Shown here: positions 7,826 through 28,509 of the stretch, piece by piece
How positions within the stretch are numbered: the first letter of the stretch is position 1
How the letters are laid out: each line of letters opens with the position of its first letter
Origin: a virus
Taxonomy: Duplodnaviria > Caudoviricetes
IMG/VR virus record: IMGVR_UViG_3300022666_000082
Span: 1-40,864 of that record
DNA length: 40,864 nucleotides
Strand: one strand, 5' to 3'
Notes under the pieces: generated by a model
The model's database searches: none
Told to the model about the DNA's origin: nothing
Seen by the model: the letters and a program-made list of their open reading frames with translations, nothing else
Made by a program: the position numbers and the translations under genes

Positions 7826-8004
7826 TGTTACAAAGCAACGACGTCAAAAAGACATTTTCGCTGAGGGCCGACCAGGTTGAGTTTTTGGACCGGCTGAAGA
7901 AGAAGGGCATGTCCAACAGTGACGCTGTCCGGAGAGCCTTGGATGATTACATGAAGAACAATCCCTTGGAGGCGAGCAATGGCAAGCGCGGCAAAGGTAA
8001 TTGA
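7825..8004 (+). CDS. Ribbon-helix-helix (CopG-like) DNA-binding protein, 59 aa (not in ORF track)
   Basis: MLQSNDVKKTFSLRADQVEFLDRLKKKGMSNSDAVRRALDDYMKNNP...; beta strand KKTFSL plus S.S.AVR.AL..Y helix; TAATG coupling. Confidence 0.8.
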   Translation: MLQSNDVKKTFSLRADQVEFLDRLKKKGMSNSDAVRRALDDYMKNNPLEASNGKRGKGN

Positions 8005-8737
8005 CGCAAGAGTGGATCTATCCGGGTCCAGACGTAAGGGCGCGATCAGGGATCTGATGGCGGTGATCAACAAATATGACCTCGATTACACCGAGTTTGT
8101 GCAGCTGTCCAAGATTGCCAGGGATGAGCTCAATCTGAAAAGACCGAAGACGTACAAAACGGTAAAGCCGATCCCGAACGGGGACGAGCTGAAGCGGTTT
8201 ATGGCGGTGGTCGAAAAGCAGAGCCTCATGCATCAGATCATGATCAAGCTCTTGCTCTACATGGGCATTCGATCGGACGAGGTCATCGGAATAAAGGTCG
8301 AGGATCTGGATCTCAGCTATGATAAGGCGAGGATCCTGATGCTGAAGCGGAAAGCCGGCAGGGATAAAACCATGACCATTCCGGCGAAGCTCGCCACGCT
8401 GATCAGAGCCTACGTGGATAGCATCCCCAAAAATATTTGGCTGTTTGAGCCACCGTATAAAGAGGGGATGCCAAGGCACAGACCCTTCAGCGATCCGCGG
8501 TTCCTACGAGCCTACATTCAAAAATGGAGAAAGGAAGCCGGGGTGGGTGACGTCATGCATGCACACAACCTGCGTCATCTGCTGCTCACCTACCTGGCTG
8601 AGCTTGGCTGGACAGAACATGAACTGAAGCTCGTCTCCGGGCACGATTCCAGCACGAGCCTGGAGCGTTACCTGCACAGAAACCCAGAGACGGTTCGGCA
8701 GAGCCTGGACAAGGCTATTAATAACATGGGAGTGTGA
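7979..8737 (+). CDS. Tyrosine recombinase (probable multimer resolvase)
   Basis: Catalytic motifs MGIRSDE, K, HAHNLRH, SGH and LERY; no N-terminal arm-binding domain. Confidence 0.9.
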   Translation: MASAAKVIDARVDLSGSRRKGAIRDLMAVINKYDLDYTEFVQLSKIARDELNLKRPKTYKTVKPIPNGDELKRFMAVVEKQSLMHQIMIKLLLYMGIRSDEVIGIKVEDLDLSYDKARILMLKRKAGRDKTMTIPAKLATLIRAYVDSIPKNIWLFEPPYKEGMPRHRPFSDPRFLRAYIQKWRKEAGVGDVMHAHNLRHLLLTYLAELGWTEHELKLVSGHDSSTSLERYLHRNPETVRQSLDKAINNMGV

Positions 8738-8741
8738 TATC

Positions 8742-9395
8742 ATGATCATTAGTATAGTTAATCAAAAGGGCGGTTGTGGGAAATCCACAATCGCGTGTAA
8801 TCTGGCGGTAGCGATGGCTCTTGACGGAGTCAACTGCTGCCTGATCGATGCGGACAAACAAGCAACGTCAACCGGATTTCGTCAATTTCGCAAAGCCAAC
8901 ACCAAGGCGGCGCAGTTTCCAATCTACCAGCTCACCACCGACACGATCGAGGACGACGTTCCGAAGCTCAAATTCGCAACCTCGATCATCGACGTCGGGG
9001 GAAGGGACATTAGTATCTTCCGCGGCGCGATCGGGTGCAGCGATATCGTATTAGTTCCTGTCCAACCCAGCGCTCCGGACATCTGGTCAACCGAAGCTAC
9101 TCTGCAGATCGTCAAAGAGAGTATGAAATTCCACAAAGATCTGAAGGTTTTTGGAGTTCTTAACCTGGTTAACCACGTAGCCAAATCCACCAAGGAGATG
9201 GACGGGCTGATCCGGGACCTGCAGAGCGCATATCCGGTTAAATTCCTCACAGCCAGGCTTGCTGCCAGGATTCAATATCAATATGCGATGGAGCAGGGCC
9301 TTGGGATATTGGAACAAACTAACGACATGAAAGCGCGAGAGGAATTTGCGGCGTTCTTTCGTGAACTCAAGGAGGAAGCATGCCTAAGCGACTGA
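8742..9395 (+). CDS. parA: ParA-family partition ATPase (short type Ib/ParF-like)
   Basis: NQKGGCGKST deviant Walker A; LIDADKQ; IIDVGG; VPVQPS..D. Confidence 0.93.
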   Translation: MIISIVNQKGGCGKSTIACNLAVAMALDGVNCCLIDADKQATSTGFRQFRKANTKAAQFPIYQLTTDTIEDDVPKLKFATSIIDVGGRDISIFRGAIGCSDIVLVPVQPSAPDIWSTEATLQIVKESMKFHKDLKVFGVLNLVNHVAKSTKEMDGLIRDLQSAYPVKFLTARLAARIQYQYAMEQGLGILEQTNDMKAREEFAAFFRELKEEACLSD

Positions 9396-9646
9396 TACCT
9401 GAGGCTACCGGATCTGATGCTCCGCTAAGCCAGCAGATCAAAAAATTCAAGGATGGGGCGAACGCTCCGGGGATAAACGAGCTTCCTACGGAGGAGATGC
9501 GCAAGATCACCCATTGGATCAAGCTGGAGAACTGGGAATTTCTCAAGATGAAATCGGCGGCGTTGAGCGTGGAAGCCGGCAAAAAGGTGACTATCAATAT
9601 GCTGCTTGACCAGGCAGTGGATCTCCTGAAAGAGAAGCTGGGATAA
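9380..9646 (+). CDS. Small ParA partner (ParG/omega-like centromere-binding protein)
   Basis: 88 aa directly after parA; flexible N-terminus and RHH-like C-terminus (KITHWI...TINMLLDQAVDLL). Confidence 0.7.
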   Translation: MPKRLIPEATGSDAPLSQQIKKFKDGANAPGINELPTEEMRKITHWIKLENWEFLKMKSAALSVEAGKKVTINMLLDQAVDLLKEKLG

Positions 9647-9682
9647 TGCCATCAATACATATTTCCATAAATACATATTTAC
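9642..9682 (+). repeat. parS-like array of 8-bp units CATA-N4
   Basis: GATAATGC CATCAATA CATATTTC CATAAATA CATATTTA at the end of the par operon. Confidence 0.65.
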
Positions 9683-9751
9683 GGGAAAGAATTGTCTTGA
9701 CGGAGTTTACCGCCGGTGCTTTGTTGGAAAAACTACATGGGGGTTTTAACG

Positions 9752-10783
9752 ATGAACGATAACGCCATGCACGGACCATCCAAGGACGTGCTGATCATAC
9801 TGGATGATAAGCGGATCATCAGCTATCGACCAAGGCTCAACAGAGAGACCGGCAGTTTGACAGCAACTGTGCTGCTGTGCCAGGCTATGTATTGGGCTAT
9901 GCATTCAGCCAACCCTTTTTACAAATTCATGCAGCCATGCAAGCACGATCAATATCATCCCGGTGACTCATGGGTCGAAGAGCTTGGCATGACCAGGACG
10001 GAATTCGAGACAGCGCTCAAGCGGATCGGACAGAAGCTAAGCTCAAAATCAACCGGATATGATCAGGATGCGTTCATCTGGTACTGGACGGATATCAGCC
10101 GGATGACATGGTTTCAGATTAATTGGAAGAGGGTCAACGAAGCTGTTGAACGAGCATATTCTGACGTAATGCAGGAATCCTGCAATAGGTACTGCGGGAT
10201 TCCTGAAATACATAGATCCACAAAGTGGAAATACGAAATGCAGGATTCCTGCAATAGTAATAATGAACAAAGAGTAACTACAGAGAGTACACAAAGAGTA
10301 TCATCATCATCTGATGCAGCACCACTTCCGGAGAAAGCACAGGATGAGGATGATGATCTCAATCGAATTTTACTGGATCTCGGACTGAGCCGGGAACAGG
10401 CTAAGGATGCCAGGGACCGGCATGGGGATCTGCTTTGCCATGAGAAGGCTAAGGAATTGATCCGGAGCCTGGATAAGATCAAGAATTTGGGAGTCTACTC
10501 CAGGACTACCTTCGGGAAGGCGGAGCTATATCCACCGGCACAGGCGGAGGCGTTACGGCAAAGAAGAGTGAAGAAAGAAGAGAGAAGAAAGGAACTGGAT
10601 TCCAGCCTTCGCGGTAATGACGAGGTTCATGAGATCCAGATGCCGGAAATGAGCCAGGATGAGACAAGGCTTTTCTTGGAATCGATAAAGGGGAATAATC
10701 TGCTTATGCAGCGATGGCAGCGAAATCAAACGAATAGTGCGATCATCCGACTGGCTATGGCTGAGTGGAAGCGGGCTAAATAA
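9752..10783 (+). CDS. Replication initiator (winged-HTH, lambda O/replisome-organiser-like)
   Basis: ATVLLCQAMYW...SWVEELGMTRTEFETAL N-terminal domain; internal palindromic iterons followed by a T/S-rich linker; start set at ATG 9752 after a G-rich RBS. Confidence 0.75.
   Translation: MNDNAMHGPSKDVLIILDDKRIISYRPRLNRETGSLTATVLLCQAMYWAMHSANPFYKFMQPCKHDQYHPGDSWVEELGMTRTEFETALKRIGQKLSSKSTGYDQDAFIWYWTDISRMTWFQINWKRVNEAVERAYSDVMQESCNRYCGIPEIHRSTKWKYEMQDSCNSNNEQRVTTESTQRVSSSSDAAPLPEKAQDEDDDLNRILLDLGLSREQAKDARDRHGDLLCHEKAKELIRSLDKIKNLGVYSRTTFGKAELYPPAQAEALRQRRVKKEERRKELDSSLRGNDEVHEIQMPEMSQDETRLFLESIKGNNLLMQRWQRNQTNSAIIRLAMAEWKRAK
10168..10257. repeat. Intragenic iterons (putative origin inside rep)
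   Basis: TGCAGGAWTCCTGCA at 10170 and 10239, variant at 10193, different palindrome at 10217; centres exactly 23 bp apart. Confidence 0.7.
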
Positions 10784-11119: not shown

Positions 11120-11212
11120 ATGACGATACTAAAGCTATTGGCAACGCTTTTTTTCGCTGCGTTTGGGATGTTTATTTTCACGCCACGTGGCAGATATCGA
11201 AACAAACGATAG
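11120..11212 (+). CDS. 30-aa hydrophobic peptide with basic C-terminus (not in ORF track)
   Basis: MTILKLLATLFFAAFGMFIFTPRGRYRNKR; AGGA upstream. Confidence 0.45.
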   Translation: MTILKLLATLFFAAFGMFIFTPRGRYRNKR

Positions 11213-11276
11213 TGTTATATGCCATTGGTATTGACAAAAGTCTTGACTAATAGACAGATCGTCAGAAAAAGGAAAC

Positions 11277-11464
11277 GAACATGAACGAACACGCACGTCA
11301 GGTTGGTGACCCCTGCCTGAGAATCCTGGATCCGTGAGGACAGGATCGCCGTGCGTGGCGAGTTCAGTTCTCAGGCTTTATATAAATTAGCCTGAGTGGA
11401 GATTTAGGTCACTCGGTTTGTGGCCGCGTTAGGTGCCCCGGAGAGATCCGGGGCTCTTTTTTTA
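11277..11464 (+). ncRNA. Candidate structured ncRNA (three-way junction plus hairpins) ending in a terminator
   Basis: CACGCACG/CGTGCGTG closes a junction that carries a GTGA-tetraloop arm; further hairpins; upstream TTGACA/TTGACT; terminal GAGA-loop terminator. Confidence 0.55.
11435..11464 (+). terminator. Intrinsic terminator
   Basis: GCCCCGGA-GAGA-TCCGGGGC followed by a T-run. Confidence 0.85.
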
Positions 11465-11631
11465 TGGGGCAAAAGGGAATCCATCCGGGATAGTGATATG
11501 CTGGAAGACGGGCTAAAGCCAGTGTTACGCTTTCAGTAATACCATAAAAACATATTTCCATAAATACAGCGAAAGGATTTGACTTTGTTTCGCGACCCTT
11601 AAACGTAGAGACATAAATAAACTACATAAGG

Positions 11632-11970
11632 ATGGACACAATGAACAAAGCAACGCGATACGAAGTAAACATCGAGATCAAAGGGCAAAGCCAGACGGTA
11701 GAGTTTGAATTCCTGCACGATGAGAATGATTACCCCGAGGGGGAGAAACGACCGGTATCGGCTTATGCGATCCGAACAGATGACGGGTGCTACTATAAGA
11801 GCTGGTTCAACCAGTTCAGAGGACCATGGCTCAATTCGGAACTGATGGAAGAGTCTGAGATCCGGAAACGAATCGATGACGCCTGGGAATGTGGGGACTA
11901 CAAAGAAGTGATCAACCTGATGGCGGAGCTACTCTGCAGACGGCAGCCTAAGAAGTGCCACGAACGATAA
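11632..11970 (+). CDS. Hypothetical protein (stand-alone cassette)
   Basis: 112-aa ORF; TTGACT at 11579 upstream and a terminator downstream. The true start may be ATG 11641. Confidence 0.75.
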   Translation: MDTMNKATRYEVNIEIKGQSQTVEFEFLHDENDYPEGEKRPVSAYAIRTDDGCYYKSWFNQFRGPWLNSELMEESEIRKRIDDAWECGDYKEVINLMAELLCRRQPKKCHER

Positions 11971-11988
11971 AGGATTTATGGTTAGGCT

Positions 11989-12020
11989 ATCCTCCGGAGA
12001 GATCCGGAGGGTTTCTTTTT
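11989..12020 (+). terminator. Intrinsic terminator
   Basis: CCTCCGGA-GAGA-TCCGGAGG followed by a T-rich tract; same core as 11435-11454. Confidence 0.85.
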
Positions 12021-12075
12021 GGGATAGTGTATAGTGAAGAGTGAAGAGGTATGCCCTGAAGGGCATGGTGATATG

Positions 12076-12103
12076 CTGGATTCCAGCCTACGCTGGAATG
12101 ACG
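12076..12103. repeat. REP/dRS3-like palindromic element
   Basis: CTGGATTCCAGCCTACGCTGGAATGACG; a second copy (25/28) lies at 10595-10622. Confidence 0.7.
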
Positions 12104-12196
12104 GTATAGGATCTTCCTGATCAGAGAATGGCACCATAAATATACGAAAAAGCGGACATGTGCGTGCGCACCTTAACACGTCGATTTTGGAAAATA

Positions 12197-12369
12197 CTGT
12201 CTTACTGTCTTATTCACTATATAACTATACTATTTAATAATAAGATACCAATAAGACAGTTGTAAGACAGTCAAGACAGTCAAGACAGTAAGACAGAACG
12301 AAAAAGCTTCTGTCTTGTTATAAGTGATTGTGTTATCAATAACTAAAAGGCAGTAAGACAGTAAGACAG
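12197..12369. repeat. AAGACAG iteron cluster; putative replication origin
   Basis: Ten exact copies (7 direct, 3 inverted) around AT-rich tracts. Confidence 0.75.
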
Positions 12370-12409
12370 CAATCTGCCATGTTCAGGGTAAATACGAGGA
12401 GAAAAAAAA

Positions 12410-13042
12410 TCAGAAGTTGCGGATCATCGAAACCATGTAACCAATGATGCGACAGTCGGGGCTATCTTCTGATAATACCAATGGTTTATAGTGATGGTTA
12501 TAGGGTAATAGCACCGTTTGGCGAGCTGCTTCGTTGATCCAGATCCGCTTGAGAGTGACTTCTTGATCAACTTTAACAGCACAGATCTGACCATCCAGAT
12601 CAAAAGGATCGAAACGAGTATGAAGCAGGATAATATCATTGTGAACTATCACCGGAGCCATTGAATCACCGTAAACGCGAAGCGCTATATACTCGTATGG
12701 GTTTCCTAACTGTGTTGTAGATATGTTAACATAGTCTAATGGCTCAACCTCACTAATTTCAGTAGGTACACCCGCTGCTATTTCTCCAGAAACTCCGAGC
12801 GTCACAAACTCTGACGCCACCGGCTCTTTCATTGATCCCTCTCCTGTAAGAATCCACTTAGATGATATCTCCGGACAAGCTGAAACAAGTCGTACTATGC
12901 TTTCATAGCTTGGCATAGATCCAGAAAAGTAGCCTGAAACAGAGGCAGAGCTAATACCCATAGCATTAGCCAACTCGTATTTTTTCCACTTCTTCAAATC
13001 CATGATTTTTACGATACGATCAATAATTGATTCCATTGTCAC
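12410..13042 (-). CDS. CI/LexA-like repressor (HTH plus S24 autopeptidase)
   Basis: HTH ELANAMGISSASVSGY; IAAG cleavage site; GDSM Ser and TLKR Lys; divergent from the cro-like gene. Confidence 0.93.
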   Translation of the reverse strand: MTMESIIDRIVKIMDLKKWKKYELANAMGISSASVSGYFSGSMPSYESIVRLVSACPEISSKWILTGEGSMKEPVASEFVTLGVSGEIAAGVPTEISEVEPLDYVNISTTQLGNPYEYIALRVYGDSMAPVIVHNDIILLHTRFDPFDLDGQICAVKVDQEVTLKRIWINEAARQTVLLPYNHHYKPLVLSEDSPDCRIIGYMVSMIRNF

Positions 13043-23262: not shown

Positions 23263-24842
23263 CGATGTTTGTAGCATCACCGGCAGAGCAGAGGATAGTT
23301 AAATACCGCACGGATGATCCGGATATGGTGACAGCCATGTGTATAATGTACTGCCGGGATATACTGGACTGGATGCCTAAGCTGCATCAGATTTACTGGA
23401 TGGACGAGATGCTGCACCATGAGCTGACGCTCTTGTGTTCGGTTCCCAGGGGCGGGAAAACGATGTGCACGGAGGCAGTCGATATCTATGAGACCTGTAT
23501 GTATCCGGGCGAGGACCTAAGGATTTACGCTCCCAAACTCGACCAGTGCAGAGAAACGCTCAAATATCACTACGATTGGATCGATGGGTCGCAGATCCTC
23601 AAAGCCTTTTTACGCAAGCGCAACGGGAAGCCTGTCTTTTCGAGTGAGACCTATGAATTCATGAACCGATCCAACGCCAAGTGCTATACCATCATGGGGA
23701 AGATGGAAGGGCACAACACGTCTATCGCGCGGGTCGAGGAGTTCGACGACTGGACGTGGGAGAAATTTGGCGATGATATCATGCGCCGTATGGCAGCAGA
23801 GATCAAAAACAAGCGTGAGAAGCGGATCCGCATTACCGGCACGATCATGGGGCGGGAGAACATCTACCGGTTGCTCAAAGACCCGGTGCTTTCCACGATG
23901 TATAAGAACCTAATGCATCATCCTGTTTGGGGTATCATTGACGTTGACACGTTATTACAGATTCCCGGTGTGCTGAACAAGCAAATCGTCGAGACCCAAC
24001 GGGCGAGCATGAGCCCGGACGAGTGGAAGCGGTCTATGAAACTGCAGTTTGCCGAGTCCAAAAACTATATCTGGGGTAAGTACATCCGTGCGGGAATGAA
24101 GCGGAGCATGCTTTGGGGGCTTTACCCCGTTCCATACATCAGAGGAAACAGGTATGATAAGATGCCGGGTGAGACGGTCGGATGTGGGTTTGACTGCGGG
24201 CATGCCGGGCAGAAGAGCACATCATCGGTATTTTCGCTGCAAATTGTGGGCGAGTATAGCACCGGATTGAGAAAGTACCAGCGGTGGTTAAATGGGTTTA
24301 ACTGGGCACCGGACGTGGACCCGGTACTATTGCAGAACGAAGTCTGTGACATCCTCGAGTATTACCGGGTAGATGGGGGATACGGTGATGCGCTTAAACA
24401 CGATATCATCTCTGCGATCAACCGCATTGCCTACTATCGCGGGCTGACGCATAAGAATCTGGATGACTGTCCGGAGAACACTCCGGCAAATTGGGACAAA
24501 TGGTATATCTCGCCCATGTGGAACAACGACAAGGGCAAGCACGAGATGTACTCGCTCCTGCAGCACGGGATCCATACGGGAGATTTATCGTTGCCCTATG
24601 CCGATCCAAAGGATGATTGTCCGGAGGCGGTGGCGCTGAGACGGCTAACGGTGCAGCTGCAGGGAATCAGACAGACTATGACCAAGGGCAGCTATCCGGC
24701 ATATCATGCTGACAATGCCAATATCGGGGATGATGATACGGACGCATTGGGAATGTGCGTCCGGTGGCTAACAGTAAACAGTAACCAAAGAGTCAATTTC
24801 GACAACGTCAAAATGGTGGGAGGACGGACTTTTGCGTATTAG
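23259..24842 (+). CDS. terL: Terminase large subunit
   Basis: PRGGKT Walker A, RVEEFD Walker B, ITGT motif, GFDCG and DDDTDA nuclease residues; start at ATG 23259. Confidence 0.82.
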   Translation: MTMFVASPAEQRIVKYRTDDPDMVTAMCIMYCRDILDWMPKLHQIYWMDEMLHHELTLLCSVPRGGKTMCTEAVDIYETCMYPGEDLRIYAPKLDQCRETLKYHYDWIDGSQILKAFLRKRNGKPVFSSETYEFMNRSNAKCYTIMGKMEGHNTSIARVEEFDDWTWEKFGDDIMRRMAAEIKNKREKRIRITGTIMGRENIYRLLKDPVLSTMYKNLMHHPVWGIIDVDTLLQIPGVLNKQIVETQRASMSPDEWKRSMKLQFAESKNYIWGKYIRAGMKRSMLWGLYPVPYIRGNRYDKMPGETVGCGFDCGHAGQKSTSSVFSLQIVGEYSTGLRKYQRWLNGFNWAPDVDPVLLQNEVCDILEYYRVDGGYGDALKHDIISAINRIAYYRGLTHKNLDDCPENTPANWDKWYISPMWNNDKGKHEMYSLLQHGIHTGDLSLPYADPKDDCPEAVALRRLTVQLQGIRQTMTKGSYPAYHADNANIGDDDTDALGMCVRWLTVNSNQRVNFDNVKMVGGRTFAY

Positions 24843-25887
24843 GACAGTAAAGGCATTAGATCAATTTTTTGCCCATTGTGTGGGGATCAATGGCGCGAGG
24901 GAATCGACAGCCAGGATGTATCGGCATCAGCTCAAGAAGTTTTTTAAACTTATCAGTGTGGACGAGTATCTTCCTGATTTATCAGAGGGCGACATTGCCG
25001 GAGTGCTGACCGCTATGCAGAAACGTGGCATGGCGATGAATACGAGAAGGATCATGGCGACTGCGCTGAGGCAGTTTTATGCGTGGCTATCCGAAACTTA
25101 CAAGCAGCCCAATCCGGCTAAGAACCTCAAGGCGATCAGGGAGTACATCAAGCATCCGGAAGTGCTGCGGCTGGATGAGGTCGAGCGAATGATCCTGACC
25201 TGTGGAATGGACACGTTTGAACAAAAGCGCAATGCGGCAATCATCTGTGTCTTGGCAGACACCGGGATCCGGGTCAGCGAGCTGTGTGCCCTGAAGGTGC
25301 GGGACGTGGTGATGGAGGAGAAGCAGTTTGTGATGACTGTCCCGGCAACAAAAGGCAATAAAACCAGGTATGTGCCGTTCTGCTATCTCGAAGAGAAGGC
25401 AATCGTTGCCGAGGCATTTACCGCCTACTATATGGATGCGAGGTTTCGTCGGGGACTGACAAGCGATGATCATCTCTTCCAAAGGACCACGATATACTAT
25501 CGAAAAGCGCCTCAGGGTGGGTATTATGAGGGAGCATCTCGAAACATAGATCCGGGGCCGATGAGCCATAAATCGGTATGGCTGATGCTGAAGCGGATAG
25601 CTGAACAAGCAAAGGTAGAGCGAGCTGCGAACCCGCACTCGTTTCGCCACTTCTATGGCACTTACCTGGCGCTCTCCGGAGTTCCTGTCACCACCATACA
25701 AATGCGGATGGGGCATAGCAGTCTGGAGCGAACCCAGATCTATCTGCACACGGCGGACATGATCAAAGGTGACAGCGCGAAAGACAGTCCTCTGTCTAAG
25801 ACAAAGGTAAAAACCAGCTACGGTGTGAAGGTGCTTAAAATGCTATTAGAGAACGACAAAGAGCAGAAAAGAAAGCGAAAGCCATAG
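24832..25887 (+). CDS. Tyrosine recombinase (XerC/D-like, with core-binding domain)
   Basis: TGIRVSEL, TKG, PHSFRHFYGT, MGH and TQIY; N-terminal ST...Y...L..F. Confidence 0.92.
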   Translation: MRIRTVKALDQFFAHCVGINGARESTARMYRHQLKKFFKLISVDEYLPDLSEGDIAGVLTAMQKRGMAMNTRRIMATALRQFYAWLSETYKQPNPAKNLKAIREYIKHPEVLRLDEVERMILTCGMDTFEQKRNAAIICVLADTGIRVSELCALKVRDVVMEEKQFVMTVPATKGNKTRYVPFCYLEEKAIVAEAFTAYYMDARFRRGLTSDDHLFQRTTIYYRKAPQGGYYEGASRNIDPGPMSHKSVWLMLKRIAEQAKVERAANPHSFRHFYGTYLALSGVPVTTIQMRMGHSSLERTQIYLHTADMIKGDSAKDSPLSKTKVKTSYGVKVLKMLLENDKEQKRKRKP

Positions 25888-25926
25888 TTCCATCTAAACA
25901 TATTTACATTTTTATGGCAGATTGTC

Positions 25927-25965: not shown

Positions 25966-26901
25966 ATGGATAAGCAAACTGAAACGATGGTCGACAATAA
26001 GCACTTCTGGTGCTCCGAGTGCAGTCATTACTGGAATACGAATGACTTCTCCGAGCCAAGCCACGCATCTATCGATTTACCTGATACCGGAGCTGACGAT
26101 CCACTCAACTACTATTCACGCTGTCCGCTATGCCATGACTGGGCGCGGGCAGTCCCACATTACTATGCCAATCTGAAAAAGATGCATCCGACAGGCCCAC
26201 GCACGGAAGCCGGGAAGCGGAGATCTTCGCTTAACGGAATGACACACGGGCTTTATGCGCAGCAGAAAAACCTCCTTGCTCCCGCACATGGCAAATATTC
26301 CATATGCGAGAGCTGTGATGAGGCGGAGCGGTGCAGAGACGGAGCTCTGAAGTACTGCCCGTATCGGGTCGATAATATGCTTCGTTTTGTCGCAGCGTAT
26401 GAGAATGGCGACGTCGAGGCGATGCGCACCTTTGCCGGGCTAACCCACGCGAGAATGGCGGACATGCTTACACGCTCCATGGACGCGGTAGATAAAACGG
26501 GAACGGAGCTGATCGCTCCTAAAGTTTACAAGGGCGTAATCGTCAGTTATGAAGACGAGGACGGCAAAGAGCACATTGTCATGGAGCACACCGCTCATCC
26601 GCTGATCACTAAGATCATCGATATGATGGCGGCCATGGGACTCACCAGTGACCAGATGAAAATGAATCCTAGCAAGACGGAGAGCGATCCCAATCCTGAA
26701 GGAAACTTGAAAGCGCCCGCGGATCCGATATCCTTCATGAACGAGATGAAAGAGATGGTGAAAATCGTTACCCAAGGCGGGATCGATATTGCCAAGGCAA
26801 TGCGCGGCGAAGATCCGGACAGCGAATCCGAAAGCGGAGATGATGCCGACGTAGAGTTCCCCGACGAGCCCAACCCCTTCCCCAACAGCATAAAACCATA
26901 A
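25966..26901 (+). CDS. Terminase small subunit-like protein with N-terminal zinc ribbon
   Basis: TGPRTEAGKRRSSLNGMTHGLY motif typical of TerS-like proteins; HPLI..I...M..MGLT C-terminal motif; CxxC pairs. Confidence 0.6.
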   Translation: MDKQTETMVDNKHFWCSECSHYWNTNDFSEPSHASIDLPDTGADDPLNYYSRCPLCHDWARAVPHYYANLKKMHPTGPRTEAGKRRSSLNGMTHGLYAQQKNLLAPAHGKYSICESCDEAERCRDGALKYCPYRVDNMLRFVAAYENGDVEAMRTFAGLTHARMADMLTRSMDAVDKTGTELIAPKVYKGVIVSYEDEDGKEHIVMEHTAHPLITKIIDMMAAMGLTSDQMKMNPSKTESDPNPEGNLKAPADPISFMNEMKEMVKIVTQGGIDIAKAMRGEDPDSESESGDDADVEFPDEPNPFPNSIKP

Positions 26902-26962
26902 AGACATAAATACAGCCATAGTGTGTATATAGTGTAATGCGTAAGGCAAAGGAGTAAGCCTT

Positions 26963-27733
26963 ATGGACTCGATCATCACTTGGATGGGCGGGAAGAAGGC
27001 GTTGCGCGAGACTATTGTCAAACTCATTCCTGAGAAGATCAGCGGCTATATCGAGCCGTTTGGCGGAGCGGGATGGGTGCTATTACATCGAGAGCGTCAT
27101 GCGCGGCTCGAGGTTTGGAACGATCTCAACAGCGACCTGTACAATATGTTCATGCAAGTGAAGTTTCATCCGGACGAGGTTTCAAAGGAGCTGGAGCTAT
27201 TGCCGCACAGTCGGCAGCTGTTTCACACCCTTTTGAAGATCCCCGGAGTGACCGAGATCCAGAGAGCGGCACGATTCATTTACCTGATCCGTCATAGTTT
27301 TGGCGCTTTAGGAAGCAGCTTTGGAACCGGCAAGACCACGTCCGGCGGTGGGGTTCGCATGAGCCTGGCAATGGAGAGAGTCATGCCGCTGGCAAAACGC
27401 CTGGATAAAGTGACGGTTGAGAACCTGGACTACCGGGAGTGCATCTCCAAATATGACGCTGAGACCAACTTCTTTTACCTCGATCCACCGTATAGCCAAG
27501 GGCATGAATACAAAAATGCCAAGGGCTTTGACCATGAGGAGCTGAAGAATATCCTGAGCCAAACATCCGGTAGGTGGCTATTGTCATATGACGACAGTCC
27601 GCTGATCAGGAGTTTGTACGAGGGATACAGGATAATCCCGGTTAGCCGCAAGCAGGGCATCACCGGAACGGACAAAGACTATCCTGAGCTGATCATCATG
27701 AACTATGGGGAGGACGGATGCAAAATTCGATAA
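26963..27733 (+). CDS. DNA adenine methyltransferase (D12/Dam class), copy 1
   Basis: WMGGK, IEPFGGAG, NDLN, YLDPPY and LSY. Confidence 0.92.
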   Translation: MDSIITWMGGKKALRETIVKLIPEKISGYIEPFGGAGWVLLHRERHARLEVWNDLNSDLYNMFMQVKFHPDEVSKELELLPHSRQLFHTLLKIPGVTEIQRAARFIYLIRHSFGALGSSFGTGKTTSGGGVRMSLAMERVMPLAKRLDKVTVENLDYRECISKYDAETNFFYLDPPYSQGHEYKNAKGFDHEELKNILSQTSGRWLLSYDDSPLIRSLYEGYRIIPVSRKQGITGTDKDYPELIIMNYGEDGCKIR

Positions 27734-28509
27734 TCTCCTGGGTGGGCGGTAAACGGCTCTTGAGATCCAAGATCATCCCTTTGATCCCTCCACACGCTAC
27801 GTTTGTGGAAGTGTTTGGCGGAGCGGGGTGGGTGCTCTTTGGCAAGTCCCCGGACAAGAAGGCATGGGGCTGCACCGGAAAGGCTATGCCCTATACCGAG
27901 GTCTATAATGATATCAATGGTGAGCTGGTCAACTTTTGGCGTCAGGTAAAACACCATCCGGAGAGTCTGGCGGCAGAGATCAACCGGGAGCTCGTCTCAC
28001 GCGAGGTCTTTGATGAGTACATGAAAACAGAGCCGACAACGGAGCTGGGCAGAGCAGTACGATTCTACTACCTTTTGGGATGTTCCTACGGGAGCCAATC
28101 CAAGAATTTCTGCATTAACCGGGGTTACCGCTATTTGCCATTACGCAATCCTGACAAGCTGCTAAAAGCCAGTGAGCGACTCAGGCACGTGATCATCGAG
28201 AGGAAAAAGTGGCAAGACCTGATCAGCCGCTACGACTCCGAGACCACGCTGTTTTACCTCGATCCCCCGTACTATGACCATGAACGACTTTATAAACGAG
28301 ATGATGCCGAGGCGTTTAACGAGCATGAAGAGCTGGCTCGAGCACTCATGAAGATTAAGGGGAAGTTCATTCTCTCCTATAACGATTGTAAAGAAATAAG
28401 GCACCTGTATGCCGGAGCGCAGATAACAGAAGTAACTGCGACATATTCGGTGAGCGGGAAATGGTCGACTGAGACCGAACTAATAATAACTCAAAGGAGT
28501 TTACCATGA
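27718..28509 (+). CDS. DNA adenine methyltransferase (D12/Dam class), copy 2
   Basis: WVGGK, VEVFGGAG, NDIN, YLDPPY and LSYND. Confidence 0.92.
   Translation: MQNSIISWVGGKRLLRSKIIPLIPPHATFVEVFGGAGWVLFGKSPDKKAWGCTGKAMPYTEVYNDINGELVNFWRQVKHHPESLAAEINRELVSREVFDEYMKTEPTTELGRAVRFYYLLGCSYGSQSKNFCINRGYRYLPLRNPDKLLKASERLRHVIIERKKWQDLISRYDSETTLFYLDPPYYDHERLYKRDDAEAFNEHEELARALMKIKGKFILSYNDCKEIRHLYAGAQITEVTATYSVSGKWSTETELIITQRSLP

What the first reader, a model, noticed from the sequence alone, without database searches (positions are those of the whole stretch)
11277..11464. Stand-alone ~190-nt structured RNA with built-in alternative pairings
Seen: basal helix GAACaTGAAC/GTTCAGTTC, a GAA/GCGA internal loop, then CACGCACG/CGTGCGTG (11290/11350) closing a three-way junction. 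Its arms are TCAGG..CCTGA and ATCCTG-ga-TCC-GTGA-GGA-CAGGAT. Then come CTCAGGCT/AGCCTGAG, GGTCAC/GTGGCC and a GAGA-loop terminator. GCCTGAGAA (11315) can instead pair with TTCTCAGGC (11368), and GGTGACC (11305) can pair with GGTCACT (11407). Two GNRA loops, upstream -35 boxes and no downstream gene inside the unit point to a trans-acting RNA. I recognise no family. Inference: a novel ncRNA, possibly a switch, ribozyme or antitoxin.
Basis: partly seen in the sequence, partly recalled or inferred. Interest (0 to 1): 0.75.

Follow-up and report, generated by a model that had tools for sequence, protein, structure and literature searches.

The report
Gene-less C4-type phage antisense RNA
This folded phage RNA is real and conserved, and it is built like the C4 antisense RNA that keeps phage antirepressor genes switched off, but it has no such gene of its own, so it likely acts on matching messages elsewhere, for example those of rival phages.

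Summary
The helices are real and conserved. The window is a complete temperate phage whose ParA has Cloacimonadota relatives. Three relatives (G001, G002, L276) carry a gene-less copy in the same neighbourhood; a model built from them alone finds the window RNA (E 1e-10).

The same unit gates an ORF6N antirepressor in two relatives and occurs in 27 of 151 relatives of a deltaproteobacterial genome; two of those score near Rfam c4-2. The window RNA matches no Rfam family.

Unusual here: no antirepressor in this phage, no downstream target or gene, masking strands, a separate terminator. No target is conserved inside the three phages; a match to the rep start occurs in this phage only (5 of 300 shuffles). 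Transcription and processing are not shown. The scan reported a similar target-less c4-like RNA on other DNA (e1-5883903). Verdict: new variant of a known kind.

The parts
11231..11248 (+). two -35-like boxes (TTGACA 11231, TTGACT 11243); promoter inferred, -10 weak
   Evidence: not listed as a promoter; relatives have TTGACA 34-35 nt before b1
11282..11286 (+). b1 site (TGAAC), pairs with b'
11290..11297 (+). a1 site (CACGCACG), pairs with a'; 7 of 8 pairs changed on both sides against three relatives
11298..11320 (+). hairpin whose 5' strand (TCAGG) masks the 5' strand of the C4-type closing stem
   Evidence: helix 3
11315..11376 (+). C4-type unit: closing stem 11315-11323/11368-11376, GTGA hairpin 11323-11346, a' hairpin 11346-11361 (loop 11351-11356), b' 11362-11366
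11389..11396 (+). second masking strand (AGCCTGAG), pairs with the 3' strand of the closing stem
11410..11434 (+). 3' module with motifs CACTCGG (11410) and GCGTTAGG (11426) invariant in all four gene-less copies; role unknown
11435..11464 (+). intrinsic terminator
   Evidence: kept in relatives with changes (helix 8)
9753..9774 (+). candidate trans target at the start of the Rep-O-like gene (TGAAC over the start codon; 12-nt match at 9763-9774); this phage only

Best explanation
The stretch is a gene-less C4-type antisense cassette: a likely ~185-nt transcript that holds a 65-nt three-way unit whose two address strands (a', b') match its own 5' end (a1, b1), and the unit, once likely cut out, would pair in trans with leaders that carry the same address, most likely antirepressor leaders of other phages of this host, and keep them off. 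Shown: both folds, their conservation, the co-changing address, the absence of a gene and of a downstream target. Confidence that it is C4-type is about 0.9; the figure below is for the whole mechanism including the outside target.
For: Homologues in 3 of 3 related phage records or contigs that span this region; R1 built without the window finds it at 47.5 bits, E 1.2e-10. The excised piece folds into the same three-way unit in 6 of 6 sequences; 72 of 72 cells paired, 4 of 12 pairs changed on both sides. In G001 and L276 the same unit lies between matching upstream sites and matching sites over the ribosome-binding site of an ORF6N antirepressor (Pfam E 6.8e-14; PHROG E 2.9e-22); cognate pairing -17.1 and -16.6 against swapped -10.6 and -11.1 kcal/mol. 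A model from 11 deltaproteobacterial units alone finds 11311-11383 at 39.6 bits, E 9e-8; two such units score 33.5 and 36.1 bits on Rfam c4-2, gathering 41. Own upstream is the best two-block match in 10 of 15 and 13 of 30 elements, about 1 expected. The gene-less copy is in 4 of 4 phage sequences, the antirepressor cassette in 2 of 4. Its address stays the same in G001, G002 and L276 while the neighbouring antirepressor address differs, so it does not track its own antirepressor.
Against: No leader carrying either gene-less address was found; Cloacimonadota genomes could not be searched, and the 30 deltaproteobacterial leaders examined give only background scores. The masked fold is favoured by 4.3 (window) to 10-11 kcal/mol (relatives), the reverse of the two antirepressor leaders, so release of the unit is not assured. 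The covariation rests on two lineages of gene-less copies. A plain duplex-energy test ranked the own upstream first in only 3 of 20; the two-block test was devised afterwards. The cognate ribosome-binding site was not the best of 87 G001 starts by energy. The window promoter lacks a good -10. The window RNA itself does not match C4, c4-2 or sRNA-Xcc1. No read evidence of transcription (searches are contigs only).
Confidence: 0.5

Rival explanations
1. The unit has been re-aimed at the phage's own Rep-O-like gene and limits its translation, a copy-number brake for a plasmid-like prophage.
For: a'b' pairs with the rep start at -28.1 kcal/mol, best of 83 starts, next -22.9; 5 of 300 shuffles do as well; best outside site in the genome by the two-block score. 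The phage has ParA, a Xer-like recombinase and a Rep-O-like gene. P4 CI RNA restrains replication genes (PMC4825925, passage).
Against: Not seen in G001 or G002: rep z +1.3 and +0.9 against -2.9 here; best-start tests 107 and 294 of 300. One of three genomes tested; a site of higher score lies mid-gene in G002, so scores of this size arise by chance. Block spacing differs from the a1/b1 site.
Confidence: 0.15
2. A self-addressed switch: the only partner of the unit is its own precursor, and the output is the fold or release of the conserved 3' module (CACTCGG, GCGTTAGG).
For: a1:a' co-changed although no gene follows; two masking strands are kept in 4 of 4 copies; the 3' motifs are invariant in 4 of 4 while 100-nt flanks are not alike.
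Against: No target of the 3' motifs is shared among 27 orthologous gene starts; the pre-terminator part alone is only weakly conserved by local alignment (13 of 200 shuffles) and folds no better than shuffles; the terminator forms in both predicted states.
Confidence: 0.17
3. A leftover of a lost antirepressor cassette, kept mainly as the terminator of the rep operon.
For: The element looks like the antirepressor leader minus the stretch between two GCCTGAG repeats; weak -10 in the window; G002 appears to have lost the neighbouring antirepressor cassette.
Against: Both folds and the address pairing are kept between phages whose proteins are mostly 25-70% identical, with unrelated flanks.
Confidence: 0.12
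4. Ribozyme, riboswitch or type I antitoxin.
For: A 30-aa hydrophobic ORF lies just upstream (11120-11212); two alternative folds exist.
Confidence: 0.06

Closest known systems
c4 antisense RNA of phages P1/P7 (immI; Rfam C4 RF01695, accession from earlier scan notes)
   Same: Three stems with tetraloop, a' loop and b' strand; variable address; matching sites upstream; in two relatives matching sites over the ribosome-binding site of an antirepressor (features from PMC5320573 passages).
   Different: No Rfam match; 65 nt; closing stem does not start with the GGW motif; no a2/b2, icd or ant behind the window copy; masking strands and a separate terminator.
Rfam c4-2 (RF02944, clan CL00128)
   Same: Two homologues score 33.5 and 36.1 bits over the whole model.
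   Different: Both are below gathering (41); 2 of 31 homologue loci scanned (one locus a chance hit); the window and its phage relatives do not hit. The supplement that describes c4-2 could not be read.
CI RNA of phage P4 with seqA/seqC; IsrK/STnc1160 of Gifsy-1
   Same: Antisense RNA cut from a leader, pairing with an upstream site and causing termination (PMC4825925, abstract and one passage); in 23 of 30 deltaproteobacterial homologues the closing stem is followed by a U-rich tail.
   Different: The window copy has no seqC-like site, no U tail behind the closing stem, no leaky terminator between a1/b1 and the unit, and no gene to gate.
Acinetobacter baumannii Group 1 C4-like sRNAs (PMC5320573)
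   Same: C4-like RNAs with varied a' loops proposed to act on incoming phages or host messages; precedent for trans use.
   Different: Those match the P1/P7 C4 family; targets there are also unproven.

Membership tests
C4/CI-type antisense RNA (works like) | three-way unit: closing stem, tetraloop hairpin, a' hairpin, single-stranded b' | tested here: met
C4/CI-type antisense RNA (works like) | upstream a1/b1 sites complementary to a'/b' that change with them | tested here: met
   plain energy test weak
C4/CI-type antisense RNA (works like) | downstream a2/b2 (seqC) site over a ribosome-binding site | tested here: not met
   none behind the window copy; present in the two antirepressor leaders of relatives
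C4/CI-type antisense RNA (works like) | antirepressor (or replication) operon behind the RNA | tested here: not met
   no antirepressor among 45 ORFs; tblastn with the first 67 residues read from the G001 antirepressor start finds none in the window
C4/CI-type antisense RNA (works like) | processing from the precursor (RNase P at the 5' end in P1) | not testable with these tools
   only contigs available
Rfam C4 / c4-2 / sRNA-Xcc1 (member) | score at or above the gathering threshold | tested here: not met
   window no hit at E up to 10; homologues 33.5 and 36.1 bits against 41 for c4-2
type I antitoxin | extended complement to a small toxin message | tested here: not met
self-cleaving ribozyme | match to a ribozyme family | tested here: not met
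   cleavage itself not testable

The most novel reading that the evidence does not exclude
A C4-type immunity RNA freed from its antirepressor and rebuilt as a self-masked, self-amplifying RNA latch that acts purely in trans, and in this phage has been re-addressed to the start codon of the replication gene: a reprogrammable antisense module that moved from immunity to copy-number control.
Probability: 0.15. Interest if true: 0.7.

Novelty: new variant of a known kind. Interest (0 to 1): 0.42.

Why it matters
C4-type RNAs are short address codes that decide which phages can induce or superinfect a lysogen. A copy kept without its own gene would be a stand-alone RNA shield, or a module re-aimed at a new message, and its address predicts the target directly. 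It also extends C4-type control to phages of Cloacimonadota and to a set of deltaproteobacterial leaders that Rfam misses, where the closing stem appears to double as a terminator.

Tried and rejected
Exact 22-nt pattern in viral contigs: 0. blastn of phage records: terminator and chance hits only. CI query: no relatives. ParA single and alignment scans returned only distant ParA, including the one genome-collection scan. Core pattern: 2 of 4 viral matches and 35 of 36 metagenome matches were judged chance on inspection. 3' pattern: only G001 and G002. Primase scan: 14 further loci, none with the RNA. Model R2: 0 of 151 genomes in the phylum of G003; R3: 0 of 151 in the phylum of G005; full-length R1: 0 of 151 relatives of G208; none had a positive control genome. 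L320 is a chance hit in a coding region. Eight sequencing runs laid as contigs show no variant inside the RNA and cannot show transcription; an RNA-library contig stops at 11401. A conserved antiterminator against the final terminator was looked for by eye and not found; the terminator forms in both constrained folds. No conserved small ORF behind the unit (frames differ). Weak Rfam hits to sX12 and BjrC1505 rest mainly on the terminator. No shared target among 27 orthologous starts for six RNA segments; cI was dropped from that test for want of a start call.

Full report
Setting. The window is a complete 40.9-kb virus record with direct terminal repeats. Profiles show tail, portal and capsid genes, a CI-like repressor (12410-13042, minus), a primase, and a block of Xer-like recombinase, ParA, a small ORF and a Rep-O-like gene. 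ParA relatives at about 57% identity include proteins named from Candidatus Cloacimonadota, so the host phylum is an inference. The RNA lies between that block (plus two small membrane-type ORFs) and a 112-aa ORF before the convergent cI.

Observation. The terminator is found by the consensus scan; a promoter is not, since the -10 is poor. Rfam has nothing at gathering score and only weak hits otherwise.

Homologues. A scan with a Cloacimonadota-type ParA gave two syntenic phages, G001 and G002. nhmmer over 248 loci found the RNA in G002 between the same genes, E 1.8e-5; G001 has a copy 84% identical to it; a pattern scan of metagenomes gave a fourth, L276, 1 true of 36 matches. A covariance model from these three alone finds window 11280-11461 at 47.5 bits, E 1.2e-10. 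The 100-nt flanks are not alike (33 and 199 of 200 shuffles), the core is (0 of 200).

What it is. G001 and L276 each hold a second, longer element just upstream: promoter, the same type of 5' sites, extra hairpins, the same core, and then an ORF6N antirepressor. There the segment that pairs with the 5' sites also matches the ribosome-binding region, and all three change together between the two phages (cognate -17.1 and -16.6, swapped -10.6 and -11.1 kcal/mol; by energy alone the cognate site is not the best of 87 G001 starts). This is the C4 design of three stems with tetraloop, a' and b' (PMC5320573, passages read). A core model found 3 of 151 genomes in the phylum of G007, a deltaproteobacterial genome (one a chance hit), and 13 of 151 relatives of G208. 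A model from 11 of those units alone finds the window at E 9e-8 (they were first selected with a model that included the window) and 27 of 151 genomes. Of the 30 of 34 matches with a locus, 23 have a U-rich tail behind the closing stem, 25 an ORF within 130 nt, and 13 have their own upstream as best two-block match (10 of 15, where three gene-less deltaproteobacterial rows and two near-duplicate phage rows were left out). A plain energy version of this test gave only 3 of 20. Two units score 33.5 and 36.1 bits on c4-2, gathering 41. So it works like C4/CI but is not a member of an Rfam family.

What differs. The window has no antirepressor, no downstream target site and no gene before the terminator. 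The four gene-less copies lack the U tail behind the closing stem, carry a masking strand on each side of that stem, and favour the masked fold by 4.3 to 11 kcal/mol, whereas the two antirepressor leaders favour the C4 fold by 3.5 and 1.3. They share a 3' module (CACTCGG, GCGTTAGG) of unknown role. The gene-less form is in 4 of 4 phage sequences, the antirepressor cassette in 2 of 4, and the full-length model finds 0 of 151 relatives of G208.

Mechanism. Most likely the transcript folds masked; a mature unit binding a1/b1 of a new transcript lets the closing stem form, the unit is cut out, and it silences leaders with the same address elsewhere. In P1 and P7 the c4 address sets heteroimmunity (PMC12197685, one passage), and in P4 the CI RNA terminates transcription through sites on both sides (PMC4825925, abstract and one passage). 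All steps after folding are inferred. The gene-less address in G001, G002 and L276 is the same while their antirepressor addresses differ, and its pairing to those leaders is weaker than cognate (-13.5 to -10.2), which points outside the phage. No such outside leader was found; the host phylum's genomes were out of reach.

The rep lead. The window's a'b' pairs with the start of the Rep-O-like gene, b' over the start codon and 12 bp at 9763-9774, best of 83 starts, 5 of 300 shuffles. It fails in G001 and G002. It is a lead, not a finding.

Literature. Six searches gave no paper on this RNA or on noncoding RNAs of Cloacimonadota phages; the library lacks most subscription papers. PMC5737381 (one passage) calls c4-2 a likely distant homologue of a described RNA; its supplement could not be read and may list deltaproteobacterial or gene-less members. 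Earlier scan notes describe many C4-like cassettes, a target-less pair in a Dickeya prophage and terminator-type leaders; these are unchecked and not counted as support, and none matches this sequence.

Verdict. Real, conserved, C4-type; new variant because gene-less and self-masked; target unknown. Interest 0.42.

Noticed in passing
window 7979-10783: Xer-like recombinase, ParA, small ORF and Rep-O-like gene in a row suggest a plasmid-like prophage; a second integrase-family gene lies at 24832-25887 among packaging-region genes and is kept in G001 and G002.
   Followed up: partly
window 11120-11212: 30-aa hydrophobic ORF with a basic end just upstream of the RNA; no Pfam hit, no complement in the RNA, not seen at this place in relatives.
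   Followed up: partly
window 9642-9682, 11535-11575, 2492-2516, 25883-25907, 26889-26913: Repeated AT-rich motif, twice in tandem before rep and before the 112-aa ORF; possible operator or partition site.
   Followed up: no
window 12180-12370: Direct and inverted GACAG repeats between the RNA region and the end of cI, also in G001, G002 and L276; possible replication origin.
   Followed up: no
window 11632-12020: 112-aa orphan ORF with a terminator sharing 14 nt with the RNA's terminator; absent from G001 and G002.
   Followed up: partly
window 10590-10622 and 12070-12110: Short palindromic elements also found in unrelated contigs of several runs; REP-like (label recalled).
   Followed up: no
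L323, L326, L328, L355 (core near position 1500 of each): A gene-poor variant of the unit in deltaproteobacterial genomes with a constant b' strand and no cognate upstream site; a further group (L343-L346, L350, L362) precedes small exported-looking proteins.
   Followed up: partly
L223 9700-9740: G002 lacks the antirepressor cassette but keeps sequence like the end of the 67-aa ORF that follows it in L276, suggesting a deletion.
   Followed up: partly
window 26963-28509: Two tandem D12-class adenine methyltransferases, kept in both relatives.
   Followed up: no
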